Origin: Candidatus Pacearchaeota archaeon
GTDB taxonomy: Archaea > Nanobdellota > Nanobdellia > Pacearchaeales > DTIR01
Direction of reading: 5' to 3'
DNA length: 40,265 bases
NCBI GenBank assembly: GCA_016211995.1
Contig: JACRHU010000078.1
Coordinates: 1 to 40,265 of the forward strand
Shown: piece by piece, positions 12,235 to 33,381 of the stretch
Layout: every line of letters begins with the position of its first letter
Position numbering within the stretch: the first letter of the stretch is position 1
Translations under genes and position numbers: made by a program
Notes under the pieces: generated by a model
The model's database searches: none
What the model saw: the letters and a program-made list of their open reading frames with translations, nothing else
Told to the model about the DNA's origin: nothing

Positions 12235-13134
12235 CTAGAGGTGTGATTCTTTTATACTGCAGATTTTTGCTGCATATGAACTTCCAGCATGACCGCATGC
12301 TTCAAGATTTGAACCTTTCAAGTATTCAGCTAAAAAACCAGCAGAATAAGCATCTCCTGCGCCATTTGTTCCTTGAACTTCGACTTTGTAGATTGGAATT
12401 ACAAATTTATTTTTTCCTTGCATTACAATAGAGCCCCTTTCGCCTTTTTTTAATATAGCAATAGGACATAATTCACTTATTTCATAATCAAGCTCTAAGG
12501 CCTCTTCTTCTGTTGCAAATAAAATGTGTGTGCTCTTCAAAATATCTTCAATATTCTCCCTTTGCCTTATGATAGCAGAAGGGTCTGAGAGATCAAAACT
12601 TAATTTTGCTCCAATAGTTTTTGCATATTCTAAAGTTTCCTTAACTCTTGAGGGATTTGTCATTAATTCATACCCAGATGTATGGAATATTTCTGCTTCT
12701 TTTAGTTGAAATAAATCAAAGTTATAACGGCCTGCAACACCCATTGCAGATATAGAAGTTTTTTCTCCATCTGGTGTAATAAAAAGATAGCATAAACCGC
12801 TTTCTCCCTTCTCAATATTTATTAATGAATTGATTCCTTTAGATTCAATTTCTTTTATATATTCTTCTCCATAAGAATCATCTCCTACTGTTCCAAACAA
12901 TGCTGTTGTCACACCAAGATTTGCAGCACCAATAATAACATTTCCTGTTGAACCTCCAGTTGCATGAACACAGGGTTTTTCTATGAGCTTTAAAAATTCT
13001 AAGTATGGAATATTTTCTTTTGAATTATGAAATCCTTTTTTTATACCAAGTCTGTTTAATTCAGAATAAGATACATTAATTATAATATCAGTTATTGCGT
13101 TTGTTAACCCTGCAATCTGAATCTTTTTTTCCAT
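12235..13134 (-). CDS. PfkB-family carbohydrate/nucleoside kinase (ribokinase-like)
   Basis: N-terminal GG motif (HATGGSTGNVIIGAANLG) and C-terminal PfkB signature GTNGAGDAYSAGFL. Confidence 0.85.
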   Translation of the reverse strand: MEKKIQIAGLTNAITDIIINVSYSELNRLGIKKGFHNSKENIPYLEFLKLIEKPCVHATGGSTGNVIIGAANLGVTTALFGTVGDDSYGEEYIKEIESKGINSLINIEKGESGLCYLFITPDGEKTSISAMGVAGRYNFDLFQLKEAEIFHTSGYELMTNPSRVKETLEYAKTIGAKLSFDLSDPSAIIRQRENIEDILKSTHILFATEEEALELDYEISELCPIAILKKGERGSIVMQGKNKFVIPIYKVEVQGTNGAGDAYSAGFLAEYLKGSNLEACGHAGSSYAAKICSIKESHL

Positions 13135-13146
13135 TTTCAGTTTATG

Positions 13147-13205
13147 AAAAAAACAGCTTTGCTGTTTTTAGCATCCTAAAAAAGCTTAATGTCAAGCTTT
13201 TTTTT
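13147..13205. repeat. Twin-hairpin intergenic element, copy 2
   Basis: Hairpin AAAAACAGC(13149-57)/GCTGTTTTT(13161-69), central AGCATCCT (13170-77), then hairpin AAAAAAGCTT(13178-87)/AAGCTTTTTT(13194-203). Confidence 0.6.
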
Positions 13206-13209
13206 GATA

Positions 13210-15480
13210 TCAGCTGTATTTTACTAAGATGCTCCCTAATTTATCCTTTATAGATTTTATGCTGCTGACTTTGTAGTATATTACTGCAGGATTTTTTGCT
13301 GCTAATACCTTAACTTGCTGCCCAAGGCTACTGCTTGATGCAACTTCAACAAATACAAACGCTGTATCTTTCTTTGAAGCAATATTCTGTATTGAGCTGT
13401 ATATTCTGTTATCTCCTGCAACCTCTCCGTCTGTTATTAAAGTGTATATTGTTTTTCCTTGTTTCAAATCCTTTTCTATTTTTTTAAAAACATCGCTATT
13501 AAGATAGGTTCCCCCGCATTGAGGCGAAAGAGAAACATCTTTAACCCTGTGCCTTTTTGCGTCATAAATACTAACAAGATCATCCAATCCACTGTATCTT
13601 GTCATGTCTGAAAAATCTACAATACCAAATTTTGGATGTTTTCCTAATTTTTTTGCTGTATTTACAAGACCTTTCATTAAGCCGTATTTAACTCTGTTTA
13701 AGATATCAAATTTATTGCCTGTTCCAACAAAAAAACCTCCAGTCATTGTGCCAGAAGAGTCTTGTAATAACACCCAGTTATCAGGAATCTCTATTCCTGT
13801 AAGTTGCGAAGAATAAGATTTCAATGGAGTTTCTTTAAGCTCATAATCATTAAATCTCCAATATCCATTTCCTATATCAACAAGAACAGGCAACCCTGTT
13901 TTCTGTTGAAAATCCATTATCTTTTTAACATTTAACTTATTTATTTCAGTGGAAGTAAGATTCAAAGAGCTTCTTAACTTCCAAACTTTTTTTGTTCCTA
14001 GCTCAAATGAAATATTCTCTTCAGAAGGATTTTTTAATTCAATCAAATCAGCATTCTGCTTGTAATATTCATCAGTAGCTATACTAGCTATGCTATTCAA
14101 AACACGTTTAGAAGGCATTCCTGCGCCTTTTCCTCCTCCACCATAGCTATCATAATCATCATAATTAGTTCCTTGTTGGATTACATCTTCAAGTAAATCA
14201 TCTCTCTCTTTGTCTGGTAGTTCTTCAAGTAAATCATCCATTGTCTGGGACATGCTATCTCCTTCCATCTCCTCATCGCTTTTGCCTTTTCCAGCTCCTT
14301 GACCTTCATCTTCTTCTCCTTCTTCACTCTCTTCTCCTTCTTCTTCACCTTGTCCTCCAGCCTGGCCTTCTCCAGATTCTCCTGAACCTTGCCCTGAACC
14401 AGAGCCAAAACTTGATGTATTGCTGTCAAAACTTCCCTGCTTTTCTCTTACTGAAATGTACTTTGAAATTGCTTTTACAAAACCTTTTATAGAATCGTAT
14501 CTTGAAAGTTGAGAATCAAATACTCTTGTCAAGGAAGCAACAAAATATTTTTGTATTCCTTCATATTTTAAATTGGAAAAATCTGTGATATCTGAAATTT
14601 TTTTAAGATATTCTTTTCTGTCAATTCCAAGCATCTTTAAATGCTCGTCTTTAACATCTGAGATAAATCCAGAATACATTTCTTTTAGAACATCAAGAGC
14701 AGCTAAATTGCTTAATTTTTTGCTATTTAAATCATCTAAAAAAATCTGTGCTGCATTTTTTCTAGCCTCTTCTGAATTAAAAGACATTGTTGAATATAAA
14801 AGTCCGACTAATGAAATAGGAACATCTGTTGTCCTGTTTGCTGCAGAGTTCATATAAACAATTGGTAAAATCCCAGAAGGATAATGCATTACTGGCTGAG
14901 ATTCAATTTCTCTGCCATTATCCTGGAAAATAAAGCTTATCTTCTGTTCAAGTGTTTCATTATTATATCCAGAAGTTTTTGAAATAAATGCTATGTTTAA
15001 AATAGCATCCCAGCAAAGGTTCTTTATATTGTTTGCCTTAAACATTGCCTGTGCCTTTGACAAGCTAGGCTCTGCCTCTTTTATGCCGTCATACAATGTT
15101 TTTGTAATCTTTCTTTCATCAAATCTGCTGTTAGGACAAAACCATGGGTGCAATTGCTCATGAAAATGCACAAAAAGAAATGTGTCATAGATAATATTTT
15201 TCAGCAGTTCTGAGTCGGAAATTTTATTCTTAACCCTATAGAGCTTTTGGCTAGCTATTTTGTAAGCAGGAACTATGGTATCTTCAAAATTTTTTTTAAG
15301 TTTAGCTTCATTATTTATATTAATAAAAATTCTTTTATTGTCTGTATAAGCATCAAAATCTGTTTTTGATTTTGGATTAGAACCATAATTAATCTCTTTA
15401 TCAGAATCTAAAGGCGTTGCTAATCTAACTATCTCTCTCCATGTTTTTCCTGATTCTAGCACTATATCTTTGGCTTTCAT
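13210..15480 (-). CDS. HExxH putative metallopeptidase domain, acidic low-complexity linker and C-terminal vWA-like domain (DUF2201-type MoxR partner)
   Basis: FVHFHEQLH is encoded at 15148-15162. The linker runs GSGSGQGSGESGEGQAGGQGEEEGEESEEGEEDEGQGAGKG.... The vWA MIDAS-like motif is VLLQDSSGTMTG, followed by LITDGEV. The gene lies immediately downstream of an AAA_5 ATPase. Confidence 0.7.
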   Translation of the reverse strand: MKAKDIVLESGKTWREIVRLATPLDSDKEINYGSNPKSKTDFDAYTDNKRIFININNEAKLKKNFEDTIVPAYKIASQKLYRVKNKISDSELLKNIIYDTFLFVHFHEQLHPWFCPNSRFDERKITKTLYDGIKEAEPSLSKAQAMFKANNIKNLCWDAILNIAFISKTSGYNNETLEQKISFIFQDNGREIESQPVMHYPSGILPIVYMNSAANRTTDVPISLVGLLYSTMSFNSEEARKNAAQIFLDDLNSKKLSNLAALDVLKEMYSGFISDVKDEHLKMLGIDRKEYLKKISDITDFSNLKYEGIQKYFVASLTRVFDSQLSRYDSIKGFVKAISKYISVREKQGSFDSNTSSFGSGSGQGSGESGEGQAGGQGEEEGEESEEGEEDEGQGAGKGKSDEEMEGDSMSQTMDDLLEELPDKERDDLLEDVIQQGTNYDDYDSYGGGGKGAGMPSKRVLNSIASIATDEYYKQNADLIELKNPSEENISFELGTKKVWKLRSSLNLTSTEINKLNVKKIMDFQQKTGLPVLVDIGNGYWRFNDYELKETPLKSYSSQLTGIEIPDNWVLLQDSSGTMTGGFFVGTGNKFDILNRVKYGLMKGLVNTAKKLGKHPKFGIVDFSDMTRYSGLDDLVSIYDAKRHRVKDVSLSPQCGGTYLNSDVFKKIEKDLKQGKTIYTLITDGEVAGDNRIYSSIQNIASKKDTAFVFVEVASSSSLGQQVKVLAAKNPAVIYYKVSSIKSIKDKLGSILVKYS

Positions 15481-15491
15481 TTTCCATTCTT

Positions 15492-17333
15492 CTATGACCC
15501 TGAAACTCCTAAAGTTCTTTGAATCCTATGTTGATATATCTCTGGAAGAATCATTCCTTGCTCTCTCTGTTTTTTATAATAGAATTTTCCTAAATCATCT
15601 ATTACATCTGTTATTTTCGTTTTTTTATTATATCCTTTTAACATAGGGTTAATTTCTTCTTTATAGTCAGTCAAGAAACCGCATAAAGTCATTAAATCTG
15701 CCACATTTCTTGCTATGAGAACATTTCTTATCTCTTCAGAATTGCTTATTTTTGCTCTTAACAATTTTGCCTGCTCTGTTAGATTATCTACCAAAGTTTC
15801 TACCCCCCCAGATTCATGTATAGTATCTCTCAGGGATTTTTGTATTGCAGTCCTCTTTATTCCCTGATTTGGATCCATCATATCAAAATTAGTAGTAAAA
15901 AGTTTTGACTCCTGCATGTAATCCTGCAATAAGCTGACATACTGATTAAGAATTTGATTTATAGCATTTACAGGACTCTGTGATTCTGATTTTTGTTTGT
16001 TTCTTGCAAGCAATGCAGTAGCTCCTGCAACTTCTCTTATACTAACATATTTCTTCATATCAAGATATTCTTCAAGAGGATTTTTTGCCTTCAAGGAATC
16101 TTTAACATTTCTCAATGTTGCAAGAACATCAGCAAGCCTTTTAATCTGTACAATATCTCTGAATATCATAGGAACTTTGAACGAATAAGTTATTTCATGA
16201 ATTTTTTTTATATTATCAGTTTCATGCAAGCTTTCTGTTATAGTAATTCCTTTTTTAAGCTTTGATTCCCAATCACTGATTACATTCTTTTCATAGTTAA
16301 AATATTCAATTAAATTTCCGCTGAATGTAGCGATAAGAAGGTCAGAAAGTTCTAATGCAGAATAGAGTATCGGCTTATCTGTTCTTTTTGATTCTGTTAT
16401 CCAAGAATATGTTGAGAGCCAATCTCTTTCTAGATTTTCAAGAGTTTTTTCAGGAATGCCTAGATACTTTACAGTCCTTTCTGTGAATTTTTTCATAAAT
16501 TCTTCATGAGGCTTTTTTCCATCCTCTCCGAGCCATAGGACAGAGCCTGCGCTTGGAGCAGCATTGCCAACATATGTTTTTAGTAATCTATTATCAACAG
16601 CTGCATCTAACTGCAAGGTTTGTGTAAATTTTGAGTCATCTGTGTTTGCTGGGTTCTGCGCAGTAATTATAAGCAATTTCTTTAATCTACCGCTCTTTTC
16701 ATTGTATTTTCCATAATTTCCTGTAAATTCAGGAATAGGGATTCCAAATTTGTATATCTTACCTCCTAAATGCATTTCATTATCAAATAACTGCAGAGTT
16801 TCATTTGAATCTCCCCTATTAATCTCATCAACAATTACTGCTGCTGTTTTTTCAATAATATCTATCCTTGGATTTATAACCGGCATTCCATTCTCCATTT
16901 TTCCTTCCTGAAATGGTGAAAATAAATTATTCATAAAAGCATTTGCGCTGAGCCTGTATGCAAAGAAATTTTCTTTATTTAAGATTGCAGATACATATTT
17001 CATTGCAGTAAATGTTTTTCCTACACCTGTCTCTCCTTCTAAAAGAATAGGCATATCCCTTATATTAGAGCAAAAAATTTCATCTTCTAAGGAAATATCT
17101 AAAGCTTCTTTTTTAGGGACAAGGCTTTTTCCATAGGTTTCATCAAGAGAGATTACATGGTTGGTTTTATCATAACTGACTCGATATAATGGGGAAGGAA
17201 CTGTGTTTTTTCTCATTACATCATAGACAGAGCCTGCATATGAGAGAAGCATTGCTGCGTGCATCCTCTCCTCATTCTGCTCGGTTTTCCCTAGCTCACT
17301 TAATATTTTTTCTAATGTATATTTTTCATTCAT
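15492..17333 (-). CDS. MoxR/AAA_5-type AAA+ ATPase with long N- and C-terminal extensions
   Basis: Walker A is ILLEGETGVGKT, Walker B is AAVIVDEINRGD, sensor-1-like is IITAQNP, and LDAAVDNRL is present. The start is placed at ATG 17333 (MNEKY) because AGGAGTGG precedes it. The ORF track's longer start is at 17354. Confidence 0.8.
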   Translation of the reverse strand: MNEKYTLEKILSELGKTEQNEERMHAAMLLSYAGSVYDVMRKNTVPSPLYRVSYDKTNHVISLDETYGKSLVPKKEALDISLEDEIFCSNIRDMPILLEGETGVGKTFTAMKYVSAILNKENFFAYRLSANAFMNNLFSPFQEGKMENGMPVINPRIDIIEKTAAVIVDEINRGDSNETLQLFDNEMHLGGKIYKFGIPIPEFTGNYGKYNEKSGRLKKLLIITAQNPANTDDSKFTQTLQLDAAVDNRLLKTYVGNAAPSAGSVLWLGEDGKKPHEEFMKKFTERTVKYLGIPEKTLENLERDWLSTYSWITESKRTDKPILYSALELSDLLIATFSGNLIEYFNYEKNVISDWESKLKKGITITESLHETDNIKKIHEITYSFKVPMIFRDIVQIKRLADVLATLRNVKDSLKAKNPLEEYLDMKKYVSIREVAGATALLARNKQKSESQSPVNAINQILNQYVSLLQDYMQESKLFTTNFDMMDPNQGIKRTAIQKSLRDTIHESGGVETLVDNLTEQAKLLRAKISNSEEIRNVLIARNVADLMTLCGFLTDYKEEINPMLKGYNKKTKITDVIDDLGKFYYKKQREQGMILPEIYQHRIQRTLGVSGS

Positions 17334-18060
17334 TTTCCACTCCTGCTTTTGCAAGGGCAGTCATATATTGCTTAAGCTGATCGAGGGTTACAGTTTTCCT
17401 TAATTTATCAAGGCTGTATAATGAAGCATCAAGAAATTTCTTATTGTAAAGCATGCTCTCGACAGTCTCATCTGTAAGATTAAATCCTTCGAGAATACAA
17501 TCTGTAAAGACAAGTGCCTCTAAGTCTCTTCTGCTTTCTGCGCCTAAAAGAAATTCTTTTCTTTTCTTGCTTACAACATCAGAAATCATTTTGCCAACTG
17601 CTTCATAGTACAAGTCTGCTTCTTTTGCATTTTTCATGTCTGCCTTTCTTGATTTTTCATACACTGTTTTAAACTCATCAAATTTATTTTTATAATTAAC
17701 ATTCATTTGTTGTGAATACATTCCTGCTTCGAGCATTATTGCCTTAAGGTCAAAATAAGAAAGCCCTTCATCATCCTCTTCTTCATTTTCTTGCTCTTTC
17801 TCAACTTTCCTCAATGCCTTTGAAACTAAGATAAGATTATCGCAAATCTTATCTCCCTCAAGCATTAGATAGTAATCCATGAATAATATTCCTTTGTAAA
17901 AATCATCTCTCTTTATTCTAACTCCTTTTTTAATTGTGCTTTCAGCTACTAGCTTTTGTAAAAATGTATTGCTATGCAAACCAAAAGCTACCTTGAATTC
18001 CATATCATTCACATTAGGAAGATTTCTTATTAAAGTTCCTAGATATTTTTCTAGACTCAT
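17326..18060 (-). CDS. Hypothetical helical protein (244 aa), first gene after the internal gap of the cluster
   Basis: ATG preceded by AGGAGGAG. It overlaps the AAA+ start by 8 nt and has an acidic patch EKEQENEEEDDEG. No family recognised. Confidence 0.55.
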   Translation of the reverse strand: MSLEKYLGTLIRNLPNVNDMEFKVAFGLHSNTFLQKLVAESTIKKGVRIKRDDFYKGILFMDYYLMLEGDKICDNLILVSKALRKVEKEQENEEEDDEGLSYFDLKAIMLEAGMYSQQMNVNYKNKFDEFKTVYEKSRKADMKNAKEADLYYEAVGKMISDVVSKKRKEFLLGAESRRDLEALVFTDCILEGFNLTDETVESMLYNKKFLDASLYSLDKLRKTVTLDQLKQYMTALAKAGVENE

Positions 18061-18095
18061 TTTAAAAACTCCTCCTTATTATTCTCTGAATTACA

Positions 18096-18142
18096 TAAAA
18101 ATATTTTATTTTTAGGTTCCTGAAAATTCTTTATGAATTTTC
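18096..18142. repeat. Twin-hairpin intergenic element, copy 3
   Basis: Hairpin AAAAAT(18097-102)/ATTTTT(18108-113), central AGGTTCCT (18114-121), then hairpin GAAAATTC(18122-129)/GAATTTTC(18135-142). Confidence 0.55.
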
Positions 18143-18172
18143 TTGATTTAGGAAGTTGAAAATCTTTGATTT

Positions 18173-19051
18173 TCATCTTAAAAACTCCTTTACAGCATCG
18201 ATTTTTATTTTCATTTCAAGCATTTTTTGGTAAGTCTGCTGCAAATTCTCGATAGAGCCCTGATGTTCAGGAATCCAGTAAACTCCTCCAAGATATAGCT
18301 TAAAGCTCCTATCACCACTCCAGATTTTTCCTTTCATTGAACTTAGGGTCCTTTTATCAATATCTCCTTCATGCTTGTCAAGAAGACTAGAAAGCTCTTC
18401 AGGAGTAGCTGACTTTGCAGCCTTCATAACTTTTTCATAAACTGATTTTTCACTGGGTTCAATTGATGGCCTGAAAGATGGCTTGAAATGTGCTATAAAT
18501 TCTGGGAAAGTTATCAAATTGTAAACTTTGTTGTCTAAAATAAGCACTCTTTCATATCCTGTTATTGAACCAAATACAGAATCTTGCAATTTTTTAATCA
18601 GCCCGCTGTCTTCAATTTCTAATTCCTTCTGTTCAGTTATCTCCTCAGCATATTTTTTAGCAATTGTTGATTCAAGCTCTGAGATTACACCTGAACTAAG
18701 TCTGCCTTTAAGCGGATGATTATCTTCAAGATCAGAGAACCCTGTCAAAACTCTTTTTATAAAATCAGACTTCAGCTTTTTAAAATCATCTTTATATTTA
18801 GTGAAATATGCCTCTTCTTGTTGCATTGGTGTTGCTATTTCTTCAAGTCCATAAGTTTCTGTATACACTTTTATATAATCTTTCGCAGGATTTCTTGAAG
18901 GAACAAAAATATGGCCTTTATAAAAGATCTGTAAATCGTCTCTAAAAACTGGAAGCTGTGGTAGAGCCATTGCTAGTGTTATTTCATCTTCTACTATCTT
19001 TATATCATCCTTGAAAAATAAATCATTGCCTTTGACAACTCTCTCTGTCAT
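18173..19051 (-). CDS. Hypothetical protein (292 aa)
   Basis: ATG preceded by GGAGGAAAA. It has an ATGA start/stop overlap with the upstream 95-aa ORF. No family recognised. Confidence 0.55.
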   Translation of the reverse strand: MTERVVKGNDLFFKDDIKIVEDEITLAMALPQLPVFRDDLQIFYKGHIFVPSRNPAKDYIKVYTETYGLEEIATPMQQEEAYFTKYKDDFKKLKSDFIKRVLTGFSDLEDNHPLKGRLSSGVISELESTIAKKYAEEITEQKELEIEDSGLIKKLQDSVFGSITGYERVLILDNKVYNLITFPEFIAHFKPSFRPSIEPSEKSVYEKVMKAAKSATPEELSSLLDKHEGDIDKRTLSSMKGKIWSGDRSFKLYLGGVYWIPEHQGSIENLQQTYQKMLEMKIKIDAVKEFLR

Positions 19052-19335
19052 TTTTCCTCCAAATATTCATTTTCAAATTCATTTTTTCTAACATAATGCC
19101 TTGCATAAATTTCATAATCACCTGGTTCAGCTAGTATTTCATATTCATATCCTTTTGACTGCAATGCCTTAATCTCTAGATTGTTTAAATTTAGTTGTGA
19201 AAATGTCTTTTGAATTGTTTCTGCACATTCTTTATAAAAAGCTACAACAAACCAATCAATCTGTCTTGCTTTTGTTGCTTTTTGTGGCTTGAATTGCCTC
19301 CAGCTTGTATTGAGTTTATCTTCTAATTTATTCAT
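19048..19335 (-). CDS. Hypothetical protein (95 aa; MNKLEDKLNTSWRQF...)
   Basis: The internal ATG at 19335 is preceded by CAGGAGGA. The longer ORF-track start (19446) would lie inside the QueC-like gene. It overlaps the QueC-like stop by 8 nt. Confidence 0.5.
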   Translation of the reverse strand: MNKLEDKLNTSWRQFKPQKATKARQIDWFVVAFYKECAETIQKTFSQLNLNNLEIKALQSKGYEYEILAEPGDYEIYARHYVRKNEFENEYLEEK

Positions 19336-20155
19336 GTTTTTCCTCCTGTATTTTGTATTGCAGGGGGTCTTTAATGCCTGCATTTTCAAATGCCTCACTT
19401 CTTTTAATACAAGCAAAACAAGACCCGTCTGCAATTTCTTCAGCACTGAAGCATGATCTAGTTTTTTCTAGTGGAATATTTTTTTCAATTGCATATTTTA
19501 TTAAATTTCTTTTATACAAAATATCTCCAAATTCGGGGTCTGTTAATGGAGAGGTAATTTGCCAAGTCCAATCTGCTGTTTGTATACAGGTATTTAAGGT
19601 TTGGCTTCTAAGACTAAGCAATCCTAACTCTGGTTCGGTTTTGTCTTCTCCAACTGAACCTGAAAAAATTGTTCTTATATTTTTTTCTAATTTAGAATCA
19701 AGCGAAACAGCATACATTACAGCGAGATTCTGCATTGTTGAATTTCTTAGAGGATGCCCTACTGTTTTTGCCAGATTCTCAGGCAGATATTGCTTAAACT
19801 CTCTGGATGGAATTTTAAAATCAATTTTTACAGCTTCTTGCATAATGCTTGAAAATCTTTTTTTATAAAAATCAATAAAAAAATCAAATGCTTGCTCTTC
19901 AAATTTTTCTGCCCTTGCTCCTCTTCTAAAAAATACAGGATAAATTTTAGAACCCCATTCTTCTGCTAGTATGTTGAGCATTACAGTTGAGTCTAAACCT
20001 CCTGAGCAAAGAGCTATTACACTCTCATTAACAGGTGGCCTTGAAACATATCCTCTCTCACTTCTTAAGATTTCTTCTATTGTTTCTATATTTCTTGCAT
20101 AATTTTGCTGTGCATTTTTTACTCTTTCTCTAATTTCTTCAATACTTTCCTGCAT
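19328..20155 (-). CDS. Divergent QueC-like PP-loop ATPase (7-cyano-7-deazaguanine synthase family)
   Basis: The PP-loop ALCSGGLDST is encoded at 19985-20005. HPLRNSTMQNLAVMYA matches the QueC ARN block, and the C-terminus SCFSAEEIADGSCFACIKRSEAFENAGIKDP matches the QueC Zn/C-terminal block. A 45-aa N-terminal extension is present and the fourth Zn Cys is absent. Confidence 0.7.
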   Translation of the reverse strand: MQESIEEIRERVKNAQQNYARNIETIEEILRSERGYVSRPPVNESVIALCSGGLDSTVMLNILAEEWGSKIYPVFFRRGARAEKFEEQAFDFFIDFYKKRFSSIMQEAVKIDFKIPSREFKQYLPENLAKTVGHPLRNSTMQNLAVMYAVSLDSKLEKNIRTIFSGSVGEDKTEPELGLLSLRSQTLNTCIQTADWTWQITSPLTDPEFGDILYKRNLIKYAIEKNIPLEKTRSCFSAEEIADGSCFACIKRSEAFENAGIKDPLQYKIQEEKHE

Positions 20156-20768
20156 TTTTCAATATCTCCTTTAATTTATCATAATCCTCATCATAGATGT
20201 GCGCAGAAACAACATACATTACAAGTTCTCCACATTTTATCTTCAAAGCAGAGGCAACATTATTCTGTATTTCATTCAATGATATCATATTTGCATAAAC
20301 TTTTTTTCCAAAATCAATACTTCTGCAGAATGCAACGAGCATTAGTTTATTATTCCTAATTTTAAAGTCAAGCATGCTTACACAAGGAATATAATCTGAA
20401 TCGTCTTTCATTATTGTTGAGATTGTAGCTGATTTGCATTCAGGTTTATCCCTTAACTTTTGTTTGACCCATTCTATCTGATTTTTTCCATCAAAATTGA
20501 ATAATCTAGTGCCATAGCTTAATGCATTTTTGAGTTCTGGAACTCTTTTCTGCTCAAAAAAATTAGAATTCATCCATTCAATCATATTATTGTCAGAGTA
20601 TTGTTTTAAGATTCTATCTCTTAATAAAGGATTTTTTATTTTAACAGCTAAATGTATAATCTCTCGTATATCCTTATCTCCATCTTTCACTGGCTTTCCT
20701 TTTCTAAAAATCTGGCTGCATGATTCAAGCCATGCCTCCCCTATTGTTTTGCATTTAATTTCTTTCAT
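20139..20768 (-). CDS. Thymidylate-synthase-fold enzyme, archaeal short type (ThyA-like; dUMP-type Asn present)
   Basis: TIGEAWLE N-terminus, KSATISTI, catalytic IPCVSMLDF, CRSIDFGKKVYANMISL and SAHIYDEDY. The start is placed at ATG 20768 (GGGGGAT upstream, ATGA overlap with the upstream stop). The ORF-track start is 20780. Confidence 0.7.
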   Translation of the reverse strand: MKEIKCKTIGEAWLESCSQIFRKGKPVKDGDKDIREIIHLAVKIKNPLLRDRILKQYSDNNMIEWMNSNFFEQKRVPELKNALSYGTRLFNFDGKNQIEWVKQKLRDKPECKSATISTIMKDDSDYIPCVSMLDFKIRNNKLMLVAFCRSIDFGKKVYANMISLNEIQNNVASALKIKCGELVMYVVSAHIYDEDYDKLKEILKNAGKY

Positions 20769-21058
20769 TTTATCCCCCATGCCTTTCTTACGCTGCTGTA
20801 AGAAATATCTTTAATATATTCCACATCTTCTAATTTATCTTTATTATTTCTCTTCTTGATTAGCATCTTAAAATAATATGGGGCATGAGAACTGATAATA
20901 ATTCCCTCCCTTATCTCGGGGAAACCCTGTTTTTTATATTTTAATTGTATTCTTATACTGCTATAGCTCCCATATCCAAAGTTTTCATAAACCGGAGATT
21001 TATACCAATAATATGTTGGGTGAATTTCTTCAAGAATAGATTCAATATTTTTTGGCAT
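20765..21058 (-). CDS. Hypothetical protein (97 aa)
   Basis: ATG preceded by TAGGAGGAAAAA. It is wedged by overlaps between the ITPase and ThyA-like genes. No family recognised. Confidence 0.5.
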   Translation of the reverse strand: MPKNIESILEEIHPTYYWYKSPVYENFGYGSYSSIRIQLKYKKQGFPEIREGIIISSHAPYYFKMLIKKRNNKDKLEDVEYIKDISYSSVRKAWGIK

Positions 21059-21614
21059 TTTTTCCTCCTAAAAATTTAGCAAGTTTAGCAAGAGCCTTTT
21101 TTCTATGGGAGAATTTTGCCCTTTCTTGTAATGAAATTTCTGAAAGAGGTTTGTTGAAATTTTGTGGAACAAAAATGCTGTTGTATTCCCAATCTGGATT
21201 GAATTTCTTGCTTATTTCTTTTACAATCTTTCCTTTCCATATACCAAAGAAAATTTCTTCTGTTTTTCCATCTTTATAACATATAATTGTTTTGAAATAC
21301 GCATCTCTGTTTGCTTTGTCTAGCAGCTTTTCAACTCCTTTAAATCCTATTGCTTGAAACAGTGTCTTGGTGTAAGTTCCTGGAAAAATTTTGTATTCAG
21401 AAAAATAAATTCCAGTATCATCAACAATAACTGGTTTTTTTAATTTTTGGAAGGCTTGCTCTGCTTTGTTTTTCACAACCTGTTCTTGGTCAAGTGTTTT
21501 TGGCTCTTCTAGTTTTAAGTCTTTCATTACTAACTTTATATTTTGTAAAATAAGCCTGGCTTCTTTGAATTTTGATTCATTCTCTGTTATAAAATAAACT
21601 TGTTTCATTTTCAT
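21042..21614 (-). CDS. Ham1/RdgB-family non-canonical purine NTP pyrophosphatase (ITPase)
   Basis: FITENESKFKEA, VDDTGIYF, and a C-terminal ...SEISLQERAKFSHRKKALAKL (SHR motif). Size is 190 aa. Confidence 0.85.
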   Translation of the reverse strand: MKMKQVYFITENESKFKEARLILQNIKLVMKDLKLEEPKTLDQEQVVKNKAEQAFQKLKKPVIVDDTGIYFSEYKIFPGTYTKTLFQAIGFKGVEKLLDKANRDAYFKTIICYKDGKTEEIFFGIWKGKIVKEISKKFNPDWEYNSIFVPQNFNKPLSEISLQERAKFSHRKKALAKLAKFLGGKNAKKY

Positions 21615-22678
21615 TTCTGATACTCCTGGGCAATTGCCTTGAAAAGGCCAGTTGCTGATTTTACTGTATTTTTATTTAAGCATATGTCATCTCCTAGCAT
21701 GAACCTCTTGTAACCAAGAGACATCAAGTAAGCAATATCTGTAAGGTCATTACATGCAGGCATTTTTTCTATGTCTTTAAGAGAGCCAAAAATTCTCGAT
21801 GCAGCTATTGCATTTGGCTCTGCCCTTATTATTTCTTTCATTGCGCCGATTATTAAATGCGGAGCATCAAGTTCCACATATAAGTCTCCTCTTGGAAGCA
21901 TTAATCCAATTTCTTTATTTTTTGCCTTTAATTTTTGGTAGTCATTCCTAACAAAATCCATTCCTTCTTTATCTTCTGGCTTTCCAATAATTACAGCTTC
22001 AGAATGAATTTTCCAGACATCTTCGTAATCAGAGAGTTTTTTTGTATAAGAGATAAAAACTTTGTTCATGCCTAATTTTTTCATTGCCTCAAGATATTTG
22101 ACATCATTATCAGTGAAGTGGCCATCAATTTTTAATGAAGGATCAAGAATATTTACTGACATGCTTGGTCTTATTCCTACCTCTCCTTGACTTGCTAATG
22201 GAAGACCTTTTCTTCTTTCAACAGATCCAGGAATAACCAGTGTATCTTGATTAACAATGTCTTCAATTTGTCCAGTAAAATTCCCGTCATCTATCCATAG
22301 CTCTGTCGGTAAATTTACTTTTATTTTATGGCTGAGCCTTACATAATGAATCTCACCATCATTCAAAATCTTGACAGAATATTCTTTTATTCTTAGTTGC
22401 CTGCATTTTAAATCAACCCAAACATCTTTTCCAGAAGCCCTTTCGTTGACTAGAGAAAGTGTTTCTTCTATATTATCAACAGGAATTGTTGTATTTAGTC
22501 TGACACCTTCTATAATTGGCTCAAGTAAGTCTGTGAAATCTCCTTTAGCAGGAACAGTAAGTATTAAGCTATAGTCTCCTATTTTCTGAGGTAAGCTTTC
22601 TTGATATGTTTTAGAAAAAAAAGGACCCCCTAAAAGAAGTCCTAATAATCCTTGTTTACGTTGATTTTTTTGAGGCAT
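21611..22678 (-). CDS. Pyruvate-kinase-like TIM-barrel protein lacking the PK C-terminal domain (divergent active-site motifs)
   Basis: Collinear with PK. VWVDLKCRQLRIKE matches DTKGPEIR, LWIDDGNFTGQIEDI matches IDDG, RRKGLPL matches KGVNLP, IIGKPEDKEG matches KIEN, and MLPRGDLYVEL matches ARGDLGVE. At 355 aa it has no allosteric C-domain. Confidence 0.5.
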   Translation of the reverse strand: MPQKNQRKQGLLGLLLGGPFFSKTYQESLPQKIGDYSLILTVPAKGDFTDLLEPIIEGVRLNTTIPVDNIEETLSLVNERASGKDVWVDLKCRQLRIKEYSVKILNDGEIHYVRLSHKIKVNLPTELWIDDGNFTGQIEDIVNQDTLVIPGSVERRKGLPLASQGEVGIRPSMSVNILDPSLKIDGHFTDNDVKYLEAMKKLGMNKVFISYTKKLSDYEDVWKIHSEAVIIGKPEDKEGMDFVRNDYQKLKAKNKEIGLMLPRGDLYVELDAPHLIIGAMKEIIRAEPNAIAASRIFGSLKDIEKMPACNDLTDIAYLMSLGYKRFMLGDDICLNKNTVKSATGLFKAIAQEYQK

Positions 22679-23606
22679 TTTCTTGTGTTAATGGGTGGAT
22701 TATATCAAGAACCTCTTTAACCTGCTCTGGAGTCTGTCTTCTTTTCAAAATTTTTACTCCTTCTCCAAGGTTTTGGGAATAATAACCAGCAATTGCAACA
22801 GCACAATCTATTAGTCTAGAGTAATCAAGCATTCTCATTACTCTTTCAGGGCCTAAAACACTCTCCCATTGCTTCTGAACCTTATCATAGTCTTCTCTAC
22901 TGTAACTCATTTCAGGCCTTAGAATATAAGTATCAAATTTTTGTGCGAGCTCTTTCATCATCTTTGTAGCATCTAGATCTTGTCCAATTGTATCACCAAT
23001 ATATTTCTTTACTCTGTCTTTCTTTACTAGTTGATAAAAGCCTTCATCACCTGCGATAATCAATAAAGGCTTTTTAACATTTGGAGTTTTACAATGATTT
23101 AGTAAGAAATACGCAGCAAGGTCGTAGCTCTCAACTATATTACTTCCACCACCTCCTTCAGGATAAACTTCATTAATATTCTTTATCAGCTCCTTGCCTT
23201 TTGCAAAATCAGTAACTTGTAAAACATAAGAATCTCCAACATCTCCAACTGCAAGTAATGCTACTTCAAGCTTATTTTCTAGTTTCTTACCCTCTTTTAA
23301 TTCCTCTAAACTACATCCTTGGATTAAGGCATTTGATTCTGAGTAATAAGTAGCAAATTTTTCAAGAACTTTTGCTGGCGCTTCTTTCATTGAGCCAGTT
23401 TTATCGAGCATGACTATTGCAACCAAATCACTATCTGTTGCTATCTCTTTTCCTACAGGTGCTGGAAGTCCTTTTGATTTATGTCCTATATATTCTCTAT
23501 CATCTGATTTAGCATAATCAGAAGCCTTTCTTCTTGTCACCTTTGCATCATCGCTCCAGTTATACCTACTTTTAGGAGTGTCGTAACTTGAGCTAGATCC
23601 ACCCAT
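22656..23606 (-). CDS. vWA-domain protein with a 60-aa Ser/Asp/Lys-rich N-terminal extension starting MGGSSSS
   Basis: MIDAS-like VAIVMLDKTGSMKE, plus EGGGGSNIVESY and LLIAGDEGF. GGAGGAT lies 6 nt upstream of the ATG. This is the first gene of the cluster. Confidence 0.6.
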   Translation of the reverse strand: MGGSSSSYDTPKSRYNWSDDAKVTRRKASDYAKSDDREYIGHKSKGLPAPVGKEIATDSDLVAIVMLDKTGSMKEAPAKVLEKFATYYSESNALIQGCSLEELKEGKKLENKLEVALLAVGDVGDSYVLQVTDFAKGKELIKNINEVYPEGGGGSNIVESYDLAAYFLLNHCKTPNVKKPLLIIAGDEGFYQLVKKDRVKKYIGDTIGQDLDATKMMKELAQKFDTYILRPEMSYSREDYDKVQKQWESVLGPERVMRMLDYSRLIDCAVAIAGYYSQNLGEGVKILKRRQTPEQVKEVLDIIHPLTQENASKKST

Positions 23607-31775: not shown

Positions 31776-31946
31776 ATGGTAAGCCACAGTATAAAGAGGG
31801 GCAACACTAAACTGACTTTGTCTATAGAGAAAAAAATCTTAGAGAATTTCAAAAAATTCTGTGACAAAGAAGGTTTGATAATTTCTAAACAAATAGAAAA
31901 ATTTATGAAACAGAAAGTTGAAAAATGGCGAAAGTTAAAGGATTAA
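31776..31946 (+). CDS. Small ribbon-helix-helix-like protein (56 aa), not in the ORF track
   Basis: MVSHSIKRGNTKLTLSIEKKILENFKKFCDKEGLIISKQIEKFMKQKVEKWRKLKD shows a beta-strand (KLTLSI) plus two-helix pattern typical of CopG/RHH. It overlaps the start of the LAGLIDADG gene. Confidence 0.45.
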   Translation: MVSHSIKRGNTKLTLSIEKKILENFKKFCDKEGLIISKQIEKFMKQKVEKWRKLKD

Positions 31947-32800: not shown

Positions 32801-33381
32801 TTAATAAATCTCATCTATTGAACTATAATTTTTATTTAAGAGATCCTGCGAAGGTTGCTAAAGAGTTATTAGGAAAGTTGCTAGTTAGAAAATTAGGAAA
32901 CAATATACTAATTGGAAGGGTAGTCGAGACAGAAGCTTATTTTGGCAGCGAAGATCCCGCTTCAAGAGCTTATAAGGGGGTTAATAAAATTTCAGAGTTG
33001 ATGTTTGGGAAACCTGGAAGATTACTGGTATATGTAGTTCATGCTAATAATTTAGTTAATGTGGTAGCTCATAATATTAATAATGTTGGAGCAGTTCTGA
33101 TTAGGGCCCTTGAACCCATCTATGGTCTAGATATTATGAAGTCAAATAGGAATACAAATAAGGATGTGCATTTATGTTCAGGTCCTGGGAAGTTAACTCA
33201 GGCATTATGTATAGAGAGGGCCCACCATGGTTTAGATATTACTAATAGAAATTCTGAAATAGTTCTTATTGATAATAAAGAAAAATTTGATATTCAAGAA
33301 GCTTTTAGAATTGGTGTAAAGAAAGACCTTGCGAAGAGGCTAAGGTTCTTTATTAAAGATAATAAATTTGTTTCAAGATAG
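32788..33381 (+). CDS. mpg: 3-methyladenine DNA glycosylase (Mpg/AAG family)
   Basis: FYLRDPAKVAKELLGKLLVRK, GRVVETEAYFGSEDPASRAY, GKPGRLLVYVVHA and VLIRALEP. Confidence 0.85.
   Translation: MHILINKSHLLNYNFYLRDPAKVAKELLGKLLVRKLGNNILIGRVVETEAYFGSEDPASRAYKGVNKISELMFGKPGRLLVYVVHANNLVNVVAHNINNVGAVLIRALEPIYGLDIMKSNRNTNKDVHLCSGPGKLTQALCIERAHHGLDITNRNSEIVLIDNKEKFDIQEAFRIGVKKDLAKRLRFFIKDNKFVSR

What the first reader, a model, noticed from the sequence alone, without database searches (positions are those of the whole stretch)
13210..23606. Eleven-gene translationally coupled cluster: two vWA proteins, a MoxR AAA+ and a nucleotide-chemistry module (PK-like, ITPase, ThyA-fold, divergent QueC-like) - candidate undescribed conflict or nucleotide-modification system
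All 11 ORFs are on the minus strand. Their junctions are overlaps of 4 nt (ATGA at 21611-21614, 20765-20768, 19048-19051), 8 nt (19328-19335, 17326-17333), 17 nt (21042-21058, 20139-20155) or 23 nt (22656-22678). GGAGG-like motifs precede most starts. The only real gap (18061-18172) contains a twin-hairpin element. Gene order 5'->3' is: vWA, pyruvate-kinase-like barrel, Ham1 ITPase, 97 aa, ThyA-fold, QueC-like PP-loop, 95 aa, 292 aa, gap, 244 aa, AAA_5/MoxR ATPase, HExxH-acidic-vWA. MoxR-vWA pairs are an established core of NTP-dependent conflict systems. QueC-like enzymes occur in the Qat and type IV CBASS defence systems. A ThyA-fold enzyme plus an NTP pyrophosphatase plus a kinase is the logic phages use to make modified pyrimidine nucleotides. 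I see no TGT/DpdA, TatD, cyclase or nuclease, so the cluster does not match Dpd, Qat or CBASS as described. Four members have no recognisable family. Such a cluster is a large investment for a reduced genome.
Basis: partly seen in the sequence, partly recalled or inferred. Interest (0 to 1): 0.85.

Follow-up and report, generated by a model that had tools for sequence, protein, structure and literature searches.

The report
Archaeal QueC-like/vWA nucleotide-conjugation gene cluster
A tiny symbiotic archaeon (DPANN) carries a conserved, undescribed operon that joins nucleotide-modifying enzymes to a protein with an invariant glycine tip, which suggests a new way of attaching a nucleotide base to a protein, probably for conflict with viruses.

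Summary
Eleven overlapping minus-strand ORFs lie at 13210-23606, and all seven family calls were confirmed by profiles or predicted folds. Nine of the eleven genes recur in the same order in more than 10 independent DPANN contigs at 30-65% identity. The 97-aa and 95-aa ORFs do not recur. A PfkB kinase (12235-13134) is a syntenic twelfth member. No PADLOC system matches. The flanks are housekeeping genes, and only 9 GTDB species genomes matched, so the cluster looks accessory.

New findings:
- The first vWA protein has an invariant N-terminal Met-Gly-Gly and a disordered tail. The protein substrates of the QueC-family enzymes Cap9 (type IV CBASS) and QatC have the same feature.
- vWA + PK-like + ThyA-like + QueC-like form a four-gene core that Asgard archaea share. 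One genome fuses the PK-like and QueC-like genes.
- The vWA family is mostly viral. In 66 distinct phage loci, Gly2 tracks an adjacent adenylosuccinate-synthetase-like ligase (46/50). Non-Gly2 versions almost never have it (1/16).

Best reading (inferred, confidence about 0.4): the QueC-like enzyme attaches a ThyA-modified pyrimidine nucleotide to Gly2 of the vWA protein. The MoxR/zincin-vWA pair and two unknown proteins act downstream. The role is probably antiviral or other conflict. The chemistry and the biological role are untested.

The parts
22656..23606 (-). g01: 316-aa vWA protein with an invariant N-terminal Met-Gly-Gly and a tail of about 60 aa before the MIDAS motif (DKTGS). Proposed acceptor protein.
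   Evidence: AlphaFold pLDDT 88; residues 1-13 are disordered. Foldseek gives vWF-A3 and integrin I-domains at E about 1e-5. MGG is invariant in 14 orthologues, and G2 is conserved in at least 90% of 30 homologues. phrog_2971 E 8.8e-18.
21611..22678 (-). g02: 355-aa pyruvate-kinase-like barrel without the C-terminal regulatory domain.
   Evidence: Pfam PK 30.8 bits. The family profile hits PDB pyruvate kinases, best 8iw2_A at E 3.7e-15. Invariant R59/N61, D88/K90/R92, K232/E234, D264 and S293 sit in stretches resembling the PK catalytic motifs. Fused to the QueC-like protein in L013.
21042..21614 (-). g03: Ham1/ITPase-family NTP pyrophosphatase, 190 aa.
   Evidence: Pfam Ham1p_like E 1.4e-34. 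NCBIfam XTP/dITP diphosphatase 151 bits, below the cut-off of 203. Co-occurs with the ThyA-like/QueC-like pair in archaeal and bacterial loci.
20765..21058 (-). g04: 97-aa ORF specific to this window.
   Evidence: No family hit. No tblastn match in any related locus; Ham1 abuts ThyA elsewhere.
20139..20768 (-). g05: short (209 aa) ThyA-fold enzyme with Asn at the base-specificity position, predicted to act on uracil.
   Evidence: Pfam Thymidylat_synt E 4.8e-13. TIGR03283 117.5 bits, below the cut-off. Best PDB hit is the CMP hydroxymethylase MilA. Invariant Cys129, R149, D152, H190 and Y192. The TS-N177 position is Asn in DPANN and Asgard and Asp in bacterial-type clusters.
19328..20155 (-). 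g06: divergent QueC-family PP-loop ATP pyrophosphatase, 275 aa. Proposed ligase.
   Evidence: Pfam QueC E 3.7e-14. TIGR00364 only 25.6 bits. The family of about 120 clusters has an invariant SGGxDS motif and Cys190/235/246/249. Best PDB profile hit is Cap9 9nto_B at E 1.9e-6; canonical QueC scores E 0.01.
19048..19335 (-). g07: 95-aa ORF specific to this window.
   Evidence: No family hit. No match in related loci.
18173..19051 (-). g08: 292-aa protein of unknown family, conserved only in the DPANN clusters.
   Evidence: Present at the same position in 17 loci at 26-44% identity. No Pfam, NCBIfam, PHROG or PADLOC hit, and no hhalign relation to other members.
18061..18172 (-). The only sizeable intergenic gap. 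It is AT-rich, holds two small hairpins and ends in the g09 Shine-Dalgarno-like motif. It may hold an internal promoter.
   Evidence: MFE -17 kcal/mol, z = -1.68, with 14 of 200 shuffles as good. Not statistically distinctive.
17326..18060 (-). g09: 244-aa protein of unknown family, conserved only in the DPANN clusters.
   Evidence: Present in 15 loci at 23-43% identity. No significant hit of the family profile against PDB sequences.
15492..17333 (-). g10: 613-aa MoxR-type AAA+ ATPase with a C-terminal extension of about 350 aa.
   Evidence: Pfam AAA_5 22.7 bits. Invariant GETGVGKT, DEINRGD and AQNP motifs. Always adjacent to g11.
13210..15480 (-). g11: 756-aa protein with an N-terminal zincin-like HExxH domain, a disordered acidic linker, a beta-rich domain and a C-terminal vWA domain.
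   Evidence: AlphaFold pLDDT 82.8. Invariant H107, E108, H111, C115, D121 and MIDAS D574/S576. Foldseek matches the C-terminus to p44/Ssl1, Rpn10 and integrin I-domains. Full-length matches to phage and archaeal-virus VWFA proteins, including ATV ORF892.
13135..13209 (-). Two hairpins, each followed by a U-run. Likely the 3' end of the operon transcript.
   Evidence: MFE -21.5 kcal/mol, z = -3.58, with 0 of 200 shuffles as good.
12235..13134 (-). PfkB-family kinase, 299 aa.
   Evidence: Pfam PfkB E 1e-36. It is the only window flank gene conserved next to the cluster, in L008, L009, L021, L025 and L036. PfkB also lies next to QueC-like genes in bacterial-type loci.

Best explanation
The cluster is an accessory, chromosomally encoded multi-component system. 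I propose it is built around a QueC-family ligase (g06) and a vWA protein (g01) whose exposed N-terminal glycine is the acceptor.

Proposed steps, all inferred:
1. Ham1 (g03) converts a pyrimidine NTP to the NMP. PfkB and the PK-like enzyme (g02) supply or re-phosphorylate the nucleotide.
2. The uracil-type ThyA-like enzyme (g05) adds a one-carbon unit at C5.
3. The QueC-like PP-loop enzyme uses ATP to activate this nucleotide. The alpha-amine of Gly2 of g01 replaces ammonia as the nucleophile, exactly as Cap9 does with 7-carboxy-7-deazaguanine. The result is a nucleobase-tagged vWA protein.
4. The tagged vWA protein is then engaged or remodelled by the MoxR ATPase (g10), its zincin-vWA partner (g11), g08 and g09.

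The biological role is most likely conflict (antiviral or inter-organism), by analogy with Qat and type IV CBASS.

Shown here: the gene families and folds, the conserved synteny, the invariant Gly2 tail, and the coupling of Gly2 to a ligase across archaea and phages. Inferred: the conjugation itself, the identity of the nucleotide, the order of steps and the biological role.
For: 1. Nine genes recur in the same order in more than 10 DPANN contigs. g01, ThyA-like, QueC-like and PK-like alone form the cluster in Asgard-type loci L014, L043 and L084.
2. MGG is invariant in the 14 orthologues aligned in A4, and Gly2 is conserved in at least 90% of the 30 homologues in A5. The first 13 residues are disordered and the vWA fold follows.
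3. The QueC-family enzymes Cap9 and QatC act on partners that start M(G/S)G(G/S)GG and MGTS, with disordered tails. Cap9 attaches the base to Gly2 (papers 10.1101/2025.04.06.647259 and PMC13279940).
4. The best solved-structure match of the QueC-like family profile is Cap9, not QueC.
5. There is an independent parallel in viruses. Among 66 distinct phage homologues of g01, 46 of 50 with Gly2 have an adjacent adenylosuccinate-synthetase-like gene. That enzyme family joins an amino-acid amine to a purine base. Only 1 of 16 without Gly2 has it (Fisher p = 2e-10, not corrected for phylogeny). Mycobacteriophage HyRo gp246 (MGSG...) lies next to gp248.
6. The PK-like and QueC-like genes are fused in one Woesearchaeota genome.
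7. The system is not housekeeping. All enzymes score below the equivalog cut-offs, only 9 GTDB species genomes carry the QueC-like gene, and the flanking genes are not conserved.
Against: - No direct evidence of conjugation exists. No complex modelling was possible.
- QueC-like proteins 42-48% identical to g06 sit in bacterial and other clusters that lack any Gly2 protein. These clusters carry DCD, an NMP kinase, an aminotransferase and an N-deoxyribosyltransferase-like gene. There the enzyme presumably makes a free nucleotide, and it may do the same here.
- A ThyA product has no carboxylate, so the chemistry cannot simply copy QueC or Cap9.
- The Gly2-ligase correlation in phages may rest on very few evolutionary events.
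- PK-like genes mostly accompany the non-Gly2 phage versions, so their role is unclear.
- No nuclease, pore or other obvious effector was recognised, and the locus is not in a recognisable defence island.
Confidence: 0.4

Rival explanations
1. The cluster is a pathway for a free modified nucleotide. Ham1, ThyA-like, QueC-like, PK-like and PfkB would make a C5-hypermodified pyrimidine (deoxy)nucleotide. This nucleotide would be incorporated into the archaeon's own DNA or RNA, or released as a metabolite or signal. The vWA and MoxR proteins would be scaffolds or regulators, and the Gly2 motif would be unrelated to the enzyme.
For: The ThyA-like + QueC-like + Ham1 triad recurs without any vWA protein in bacterial-type clusters. 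There it sits with dCTP-deaminase-like, NMP-kinase, aminotransferase, N-deoxyribosyltransferase-like, methyltransferase and PfkB genes, a typical nucleotide-hypermodification or nucleoside-antibiotic gene set. The ThyA-like catalytic residues are intact. The PK-like catalytic motifs are intact.
Against: This reading does not explain why g01 and the PK-like gene are invariably linked to ThyA-like/QueC-like in DPANN and Asgard. It does not explain why Gly2 is invariant there, nor why Gly2 tracks a different amine-to-base ligase in phages. No glycosylase-type or polymerase-type DNA insertion enzyme (DpdA/TGT) is present in the window.
Confidence: 0.27
2. The cluster is ordinary nucleotide salvage for a reduced genome (thymidylate synthase, ITPase, NDP phosphorylation, nucleoside kinase, QueC for archaeosine) that happens to lie next to an unrelated MoxR-vWA chaperone operon.
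For: DPANN genomes lack many biosynthetic pathways. Every enzyme family has a housekeeping member. NCBI annotates g06 as 7-cyano-7-deazaguanine synthase. GC content is uniform across the cluster and its flanks.
Against: All enzymes score well below the equivalog cut-offs. The QueC-like gene was found in only 9 GTDB species genomes. No QueD, QueE or ArcTGT is in the window. Tight translational coupling and conserved order link the enzymes to the vWA, MoxR, g08 and g09 genes in more than 10 contigs. L009 keeps the cluster but has only a distant ThyA-like gene 8 kb away.
Confidence: 0.08
3. The cluster is a domesticated or decaying viral cassette. The vWA/PK-like module and the MoxR/metallopeptidase-vWA pair would be virus assembly or host-takeover genes captured by the archaeon, with no integrated function with the enzymes.
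For: The g01 family is predominantly viral: 142 IMG/VR hits and 1855 representatives. g11 resembles VWFA proteins of tailed phages, haloarchaeal tailed viruses and ATV ORF892 over its full length. MoxR/metallopeptidase-vWA pairs are described in jumbo phages (PMC7824862).
Against: There are no capsid, terminase, integrase or other viral genes in the 40-kb window, and the flanks are cellular housekeeping genes. The QueC-like family has no hit in IMG/VR. Order and sequence are conserved across several DPANN orders. The overlapping reading frames argue for co-expression.
Confidence: 0.1

Closest known systems
Type IV CBASS Cap9/CD-NTase N-terminal deazaguanylation (bioRxiv 10.1101/2025.04.06.647259)
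   Same: Both have a QueC-family PP-loop enzyme encoded next to a partner protein that starts Met-Gly-Gly followed by a disordered tail. Cap9 is the best solved-structure match of the g06 family profile. A nucleotide-metabolism fold is co-opted alongside in each case (TGT-like Cap10 there, ThyA-like here).
   Different: This cluster has no CD-NTase, no TGT-like Cap10 and no OGG-like Cap11. The partner is a vWA protein. The associated enzymes point to a pyrimidine rather than 7-carboxy-7-deazaguanine. MoxR, zincin-vWA, PK-like, Ham1 and PfkB are additional components. The host is archaeal.
QatABCD anti-phage system (QatC/QatB; PMC13279940)
   Same: Both pair a QueC-like enzyme with a partner whose N-terminal glycine motif is conserved (and essential in QatB). 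Both include an ATPase component. In both, the chemistry of the QueC-like step is unresolved.
   Different: The QatC models score far below their cut-offs (NF041925 19.9 bits against 280; PADLOC QatC E 0.0095). There is no QatA, no helical QatB and no TatD nuclease QatD.
MoxR AAA+/metallopeptidase-vWA chaperone pairs of jumbo phages and archaeal tailed viruses (PMC7824862; ATV p618/p892)
   Same: g10 and g11 have the same two-gene architecture: a MoxR ATPase next to a protein with an N-terminal HExxH domain and a C-terminal vWA domain. Foldseek gives full-length matches to phage VWFA proteins and to ATV ORF892.
   Different: Here the pair is embedded in a cellular operon with nucleotide enzymes and has no virion genes nearby. 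Sequence similarity is undetectable: no Pfam DUF2201 or VWA hit and no tblastn hit in phages.
Phage and natural-product pathways for C5-modified pyrimidines that use ThyA homologues (T4 dCMP hydroxymethylase, MilA/BcmA CMP hydroxymethylases, thymidine hypermodification including N-alpha-glycinylthymidine; PMC8989533, PMC11472151)
   Same: Both combine a ThyA-fold enzyme with an NTP pyrophosphatase and kinases. MilA is the best PDB match of g05. In N-alpha-GlyT, a glycine amine is joined to the 5-methylene of a ThyA-homologue product after phospho-activation, which is a chemical precedent for the proposed step.
   Different: No 5-HMUDK, aGPT-Pplase, glucosyltransferase or DNA-level enzyme is present. 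A QueC-like PP-loop enzyme has not been reported in those pathways, to my knowledge and in the searches made.
Phage module: DnaJ-Ser/Thr kinase + g01-like vWA + PK-like or adenylosuccinate-synthetase-like gene (uncharacterised; for example Mycobacterium phage HyRo gp245-248)
   Same: The vWA protein is homologous and has the same tail, and the PK-like protein is homologous (29.6% identity by tblastn in L086). Gly2 is coupled to an amine-to-nucleobase ligase.
   Different: The phage modules have a protein kinase and use an AdSS-like ligase instead of the QueC-like one. They lack ThyA-like, Ham1, MoxR, g08, g09 and g11. No function has been published for them in the library searched.

Membership tests
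Canonical QueC (7-cyano-7-deazaguanine synthase, TIGR00364) | Score at or above the curated equivalog cut-off (150.3 bits) | tested here: not met
   25.6 bits. The family profile matches PDB QueC 3bl5 only at E 0.01.
Canonical QueC (7-cyano-7-deazaguanine synthase, TIGR00364) | SGGxDS PP-loop motif | tested here: met
   S51, G52, G53, D55 and S56 are invariant in 31 family members.
Canonical QueC (7-cyano-7-deazaguanine synthase, TIGR00364) | C(x)8CxxCxxC zinc motif, as defined in PMC13082051 | tested here: inconclusive
   The invariant cysteines are Cys190, Cys235, Cys246 and Cys249, giving a C-x10-C-x2-C pattern plus one distant Cys, not the canonical spacing.
Canonical QueC (7-cyano-7-deazaguanine synthase, TIGR00364) | Genomic association with preQ0/archaeosine genes (FolE, QueD, QueE, ArcTGT) | tested here: not met
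   None among the Pfam hits of the cluster proteins or of 20 flanking ORFs of the window, nor in the annotated related loci.
QatABCD | QatC equivalog plus QatA ATPase, QatB and the QatD TatD-type nuclease | tested here: not met
   NF041925 scores 19.9 bits against a cut-off of 280. PADLOC QatC E 0.0095. No QatA, QatB or QatD hit on the ten cluster proteins scanned; g07 was not scanned against PADLOC or NCBIfam.
QatABCD | Partner protein with a conserved N-terminal Met-Gly motif and a disordered tail | tested here: met
   g01 has an invariant MGG, and residues 1-13 have pLDDT below 50. The partner is a vWA protein, not a QatB homologue.
Type IV CBASS | CD-NTase with Cap9, Cap10 (TGT-like) and Cap11 | tested here: not met
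   No cyclase, TGT or OGG family hit in Pfam or PADLOC. There is only a weak Cap9 similarity.
MoxR-class AAA+ ATPase with a vWA partner | Walker A GxxGxGKT, Walker B followed by N-R (DEINR), QNP sensor-1 region, and an adjacent vWA gene | tested here: met
   GETGVGKT, DEINRGD and AQNP are invariant. Pfam AAA_5 scores 22.7 bits against a cut-off of 22. g11 lies 11 nt downstream and has a vWA fold.
VMAP/iSTAND/FtsH/beta-propeller MoxR-vWA ternary conflict systems (PMC7159879) | A third signature component (VMAP, inactive STAND, FtsH or beta-propeller) and effector domains fused to the vWA protein | tested here: not met
   No such Pfam domains on any member. g08 and g09 could not be related to anything. 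I had no VMAP model of my own.
Thymidylate synthase ThyA (methanogen type, TIGR03283) | Score at or above the equivalog cut-off (174.55 bits) | tested here: not met
   117.5 bits, matched over the full length.
Thymidylate synthase ThyA (methanogen type, TIGR03283) | Catalytic Cys, the R-S-x-D motif, Asn at the uracil-recognition position and the H-x-Y motif | tested here: met
   Cys129, R149, D152, H190 and Y192 are invariant. Asn is at offset +11 from the Arg in DPANN and Asgard (alignment to MilA).
Thymidylate synthase ThyA (methanogen type, TIGR03283) | Methyl versus hydroxymethyl transfer, and the one-carbon donor | not testable with these tools
   This needs an enzyme assay.
Pyruvate kinase | Equivalog score and full domain architecture (barrel, B domain and C-terminal regulatory domain) | tested here: not met
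   TIGR01064 scores 32 bits against a cut-off of 306. The protein is 355 aa with no C-terminal domain. The best PDB match is a 321-aa 'pyruvate kinase', 8iw2_A.
Pyruvate kinase | Catalytic and metal-binding motifs of the barrel | tested here: met
   R59/N61, D88/K90/R92, K232/E234, D264 and S293 are invariant in 18 sequences. Assignment to the PK motifs is by my reading of the alignment.
Ham1/ITPase | Pfam PF01725 score at or above the gathering cut-off | tested here: met
   120 bits against a cut-off of 22.5. The equivalog NF011396 scores 151 bits, below its cut-off of 203.
vWA domain (g01 and the g11 C-terminus) | Rossmann-like vWA fold with a MIDAS DxSxS/T motif | tested here: met
   Foldseek probability 1.0 to vWF-A, integrin I-domains, p44 and Rpn10. 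D68-x-T70-G-S72 in g01 and D574-S-S576 in g11 are invariant. No Pfam VWA hit.

The most novel reading that the evidence does not exclude
Proteins of one large vWA family are tagged at their N-terminal glycine with a nucleotide base by non-homologous ligases: a QueC-like PP-loop enzyme in DPANN and Asgard archaea, acting on a ThyA-modified pyrimidine, and an adenylosuccinate-synthetase-like enzyme in hundreds of large phages, acting on a purine. Nucleobase-protein conjugation would then be a widespread regulatory principle in virus-host conflict across domains, well beyond 7-deazaguanine in CBASS and Qat. It would include the first pyrimidine-protein and AdSS-type purine-protein conjugates.
Probability: 0.3. 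Interest if true: 0.95.

Novelty: new variant of a known kind. Interest (0 to 1): 0.8.

Why it matters
QueC-family enzymes were shown to conjugate a nucleobase to a protein N-terminus only in 2025-2026. The downstream logic of that modification, and the chemistry of QatC, are still open.

This cluster offers a third, very different context for the same pairing of a QueC-like enzyme with a Gly2-tailed partner. It is archaeal, centred on a vWA protein, linked to a ThyA-like enzyme, and comes with its own candidate supply enzymes and a MoxR remodelling machine.

The parallel pattern in phages, where Gly2-vWA is coupled to an adenylosuccinate-synthetase-like ligase, turns a single observation into a comparative rule. 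That rule can be tested in tractable hosts, for example cluster C mycobacteriophages in M. smegmatis.

For DPANN biology, the cluster is a 10-kb accessory investment in a reduced genome. It is a rare handle on how these episymbionts deal with viruses or hosts.

Tried and rejected
- PADLOC, NCBIfam, PHROG and Pfam scans of the members found no named defence system. g08, g09 and g11 had no sequence-level family. g07 was scanned against Pfam only.
- Profile searches of g09, g10 and g11 against PDB sequences found nothing useful.
- hhalign of g08 and g09 against each other, the phage kinase and g01 showed no relation.
- tblastn of g10 against phage genomes gave no match.
- The QueC-like family has no hit in IMG/VR viral contigs, so the enzyme module is cellular.
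- Literature searches for the combination QueC/ThyA/vWA/MoxR/DPANN, and for AdSS-like/vWA/phage, found no description. The PF06508 survey does not treat this clade. The MoxR-vWA conflict-system paper does not mention QueC or ThyA.
- A search for '8IW2' found nothing on the short PK-like structure.
- The provirus reading was rejected because the flanks are housekeeping genes.
- Gly2-type small ORFs in bacterial-type loci were rejected as spurious; one looks, from my reading of the sequence, like a translated tRNA gene.
- I could not model the g01-g06 complex or the QueC-like structure because the structure jobs were exhausted. The Cap9 residues Y115 and D117 could therefore not be mapped.

Full report
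**Origin and context.** The QueC-like protein of the window is identical to an NCBI protein of a Candidatus Pacearchaeota archaeon, a member of the DPANN group. The window has about 32% GC with no compositional break at the cluster and no tRNA genes. The flanks are cellular housekeeping genes: Rad50 with an intein, RNase HII, the primase small subunit, a response regulator, VIT1, an FAD oxidoreductase, phosphoglycerate kinase, aspartate carbamoyltransferase, a histone deacetylase and methylpurine-DNA glycosylase. There is no integrase, transposase or virion gene. The locus is chromosomal and is not an obvious island.

**Check of the observation.**
- All eleven ORFs are present on the minus strand.
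GGAGG-like motifs precede most starts.
- The 112-nt gap holds two small AT-rich hairpins, but they fold no better than shuffled sequence (z = -1.7).
- The 75-nt spacer after g11 holds two strong hairpins, each followed by a U-run (z = -3.6, 0 of 200 shuffles as good). This looks like the end of the transcript.

**Identity of the members.**
- *PK-like (g02).* Pfam recognises the PK barrel. The g02 family profile hits PDB pyruvate kinases, with a 321-aa entry (8iw2_A) as the best at E 3.7e-15. Its invariant residues fall in stretches resembling the PK catalytic motifs. I therefore expect an active phosphotransferase that lacks the regulatory domain.
- *Ham1 (g03).* Pfam Ham1p_like, E 1e-34.
- *ThyA-like (g05).* Pfam Thymidylat_synt. 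It aligns over its full length to the methanogen-type TIGR03283 model, but at 117 bits against a cut-off of 175. Its best PDB match is the CMP hydroxymethylase MilA. It keeps the catalytic Cys, the R-S-x-D motif and the H-x-Y motif. The base-specificity position is Asn in DPANN and Asgard members and Asp in bacterial-type members.
- *QueC-like (g06).* Pfam QueC. It is far from canonical QueC (25.6 bits against 150). It belongs to a family of about 120 90%-identity clusters with an invariant SGGxDS motif and four cysteines. The best solved-structure match of the family profile is Cap9 of type IV CBASS (E 1.9e-6), while canonical QueC scores E 0.01.
- *MoxR (g10).* Weak Pfam AAA_5 hit. It has the MoxR hallmarks GETGVGKT, DEINRGD and AQNP.
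- *vWA proteins (g01, g11).* Neither has a Pfam hit, but AlphaFold models are confident (pLDDT 88 and 83). g01 is a vWA/integrin I-domain fold. g11 has a helical N-terminal domain with invariant HExxH, C115 and D121 residues, a disordered acidic linker and a C-terminal vWA domain of the p44/Rpn10 type. It resembles VWFA proteins of tailed phages, haloarchaeal tailed viruses and ATV ORF892 over its full length. This is the MoxR/metallopeptidase-vWA architecture noted for jumbo phages (PMC7824862).
- *Unknowns (g08, g09).* They remain without any detectable relative.
- *Defence databases.* PADLOC finds no system.

**Conservation.**
- Searching with the QueC-like family recovered 9 loci in GTDB species genomes, 67 in metagenomes and none in IMG/VR.
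- The order vWA, PK-like, Ham1, ThyA-like, QueC-like, g08, g09, MoxR, g11 recurs in contigs labelled Nanoarchaeota and Woesearchaeota and in unnamed metagenome contigs. The Aenigmatarchaeota contig (L010) holds the first six genes before it ends. Identities are 30-65%.
- g04 and g07 never recur.
- Several loci carry two tandem MGG-vWA paralogues.
- Of all window flank genes, only PfkB is syntenic with the cluster, in 5 other distinct loci. PfkB also accompanies QueC-like genes in unrelated bacterial-type clusters.
- In Asgard-type loci (one from a Freyarchaeota MAG, L015, and one with Arf/Ras GTPase genes nearby, L084) only four genes remain: MGG-vWA, ThyA-like, QueC-like and PK-like.
- One Woesearchaeota genome encodes the PK-like and QueC-like proteins as a single 571-aa protein.
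- A wider, looser association joins ThyA-like (Asp variant), one or two QueC-like paralogues and Ham1 with dCTP-deaminase-like, NMP-kinase, class I/II aminotransferase, N-deoxyribosyltransferase-like, methyltransferase, radical-SAM and PfkB genes in bacterial and other contigs. That is the gene content of a pathway for a modified pyrimidine nucleotide or nucleoside.

**The key clue.** Every g01 orthologue begins Met-Gly-Gly and continues with a Ser/Tyr-rich tail of about 60 aa before the vWA domain. The first 13 residues are predicted to be disordered. Two recent studies show that QueC-family enzymes in anti-phage systems act on exactly such partners.
- Cap9 attaches 7-amido-7-deazaguanine to Gly2 of a CD-NTase that starts M(G/S)G(G/S)GG (10.1101/2025.04.06.647259).
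- QatC binds QatB, whose MGTS N-terminus and disordered tail are essential for defence (PMC13279940).

**An independent test in viruses.** The g01 family turned out to be large and mostly viral: 1855 representatives at 50% identity and 142 hits in IMG/VR. In 79 fetched viral loci the vWA gene follows a DnaJ-Ser/Thr kinase gene, and the loci fall into two classes.
- Versions starting MSE/MAE..DY are followed by a PK-like gene and have no ligase.
- Versions starting MG[G/S/Y] are followed by an adenylosuccinate-synthetase-like gene. The canonical reaction of that family joins an amino-acid alpha-amine to C6 of a purine nucleotide.

After removing duplicates, 46 of 50 Gly2 proteins have the ligase within 6 kb, against 1 of 16 non-Gly2 proteins. 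Three of the four exceptions sit on truncated contigs. The single opposite case has a mis-called start. The Fisher p-value of 2e-10 ignores phylogeny, so the number of independent events may be small. Cluster C mycobacteriophages (HyRo gp245-248) are cultured examples. Gly2 in this vWA family is therefore coupled to an amine-to-nucleobase ligase of one fold in archaea and of another fold in phages.

**Interpretation.** I read the cluster as a composite of three modules:
1. A writer/substrate pair: the QueC-like enzyme and the MGG-vWA protein.
2. A supply module that shapes the nucleotide: Ham1, ThyA-like, PK-like and PfkB.
3. A downstream remodelling or effector module: g08, g09, MoxR and zincin-vWA.

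The chemistry is inferred. Three routes are plausible:
- Adenylation of a pyrimidine oxo group followed by attack of the Gly2 amine, as in GMP-synthase-type PP-loop enzymes.
- Activation of a 5-hydroxymethyl group (by the PK-like or QueC-like enzyme) and N-alkylation of glycine, as in phage N-alpha-glycinylthymidine (PMC11472151, seen).
- Amidation of a carboxylated intermediate, as in QueC and Cap9.

The bacterial-type clusters, which lack a Gly2 protein, would be the free-nucleotide counterpart. They would relate to the DPANN cluster as QueC relates to Cap9.

**Biological role.** The role is not established. Several points favour a conflict function by analogy with Qat and CBASS: the patchy distribution, the below-cut-off enzymes, the non-conserved flanks and the viral affinities of two modules. 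However, no effector domain was recognised.

**Rivals.**
- A pathway for a free hypermodified nucleotide, with the vWA and MoxR proteins as accessories, is the main rival (0.27).
- Housekeeping salvage (0.08) is disfavoured by scores, distribution and synteny.
- A captured viral cassette (0.1) is disfavoured by context and conservation.

**Novelty.** I found no paper describing this cluster, this QueC-like clade or the phage kinase-vWA-AdSS/PK module. I class it as a new variant of a known kind, namely QueC-family enzymes with Gly2-tailed partners. It has a realistic chance of opening a broader category of nucleobase-protein conjugation.

Noticed in passing
L086-L171 (IMG/VR and GenBank phage loci), e.g. 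L087 = Mycobacterium phage HyRo 148852-152571: There is a widespread, apparently undescribed phage module: a DnaJ-Ser/Thr protein kinase, a g01-like vWA protein, then either a PK-like gene (vWA starts MSE/MAE) or an adenylosuccinate-synthetase-like gene (vWA starts MG). It occurs in jumbo phages and in cluster C mycobacteriophages.
   Followed up: partly
L003, L012, L031, L038, L051, L052, L057, L083: Bacterial and other clusters combine an Asp-variant ThyA-like gene, one or two QueC-like paralogues and Ham1 (sometimes fused to a methyltransferase). They also carry dCTP-deaminase-like, NMP-kinase, class I/II aminotransferase, N-deoxyribosyltransferase-like or LOG-like, radical-SAM/SPASM and PfkB genes. 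This looks like a pathway for an unknown hypermodified cytosine nucleotide or nucleoside product.
   Followed up: partly
L013:5308-7020: A single 571-aa ORF fuses the PK-like barrel to the QueC-like domain in a Woesearchaeota MAG.
   Followed up: yes
L001, L008, L009, L021, L026: The MGG-vWA gene is duplicated in tandem in several DPANN clusters. The window has only one copy.
   Followed up: no
window 952-5403 (-): A Rad50/SMC-type ATPase (1483 aa) is interrupted by an intein with a LAGLIDADG homing-endonuclease domain.
   Followed up: no
window 31925-33381 (+): A free-standing LAGLIDADG endonuclease ORF overlaps the start of a methylpurine-DNA glycosylase gene. In L022 the glycosylase homologue lies directly upstream of the MGG-vWA gene.
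   Followed up: no
window 13135-13209: Two tandem hairpins, each followed by a U-run, lie between g11 and PfkB (z = -3.6). This is a terminator-like arrangement in an archaeon.
   Followed up: partly
window 6400-7953 (-): A 517-aa protein matches only class-II glutamine amidotransferase domains (GATase_6/7) and has no recognised synthase domain. In L083 an AsnB-like amidotransferase sits next to the QueC-like gene.
   Followed up: no
L090:260-10254: A kinase, vWA (MYSWG type) and PK-like module sits directly after a block of NAD-salvage genes (NAPRTase, nicotinamidase, NAD synthase, NUDIX, NMNAT). The arrangement is reminiscent of phage NAD-reconstitution counter-defence loci.
   Followed up: no
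PDB 8iw2_A: The closest solved relative of the PK-like protein is a 321-aa entry called only 'pyruvate kinase'. I found no paper for it in the library.
   Followed up: partly
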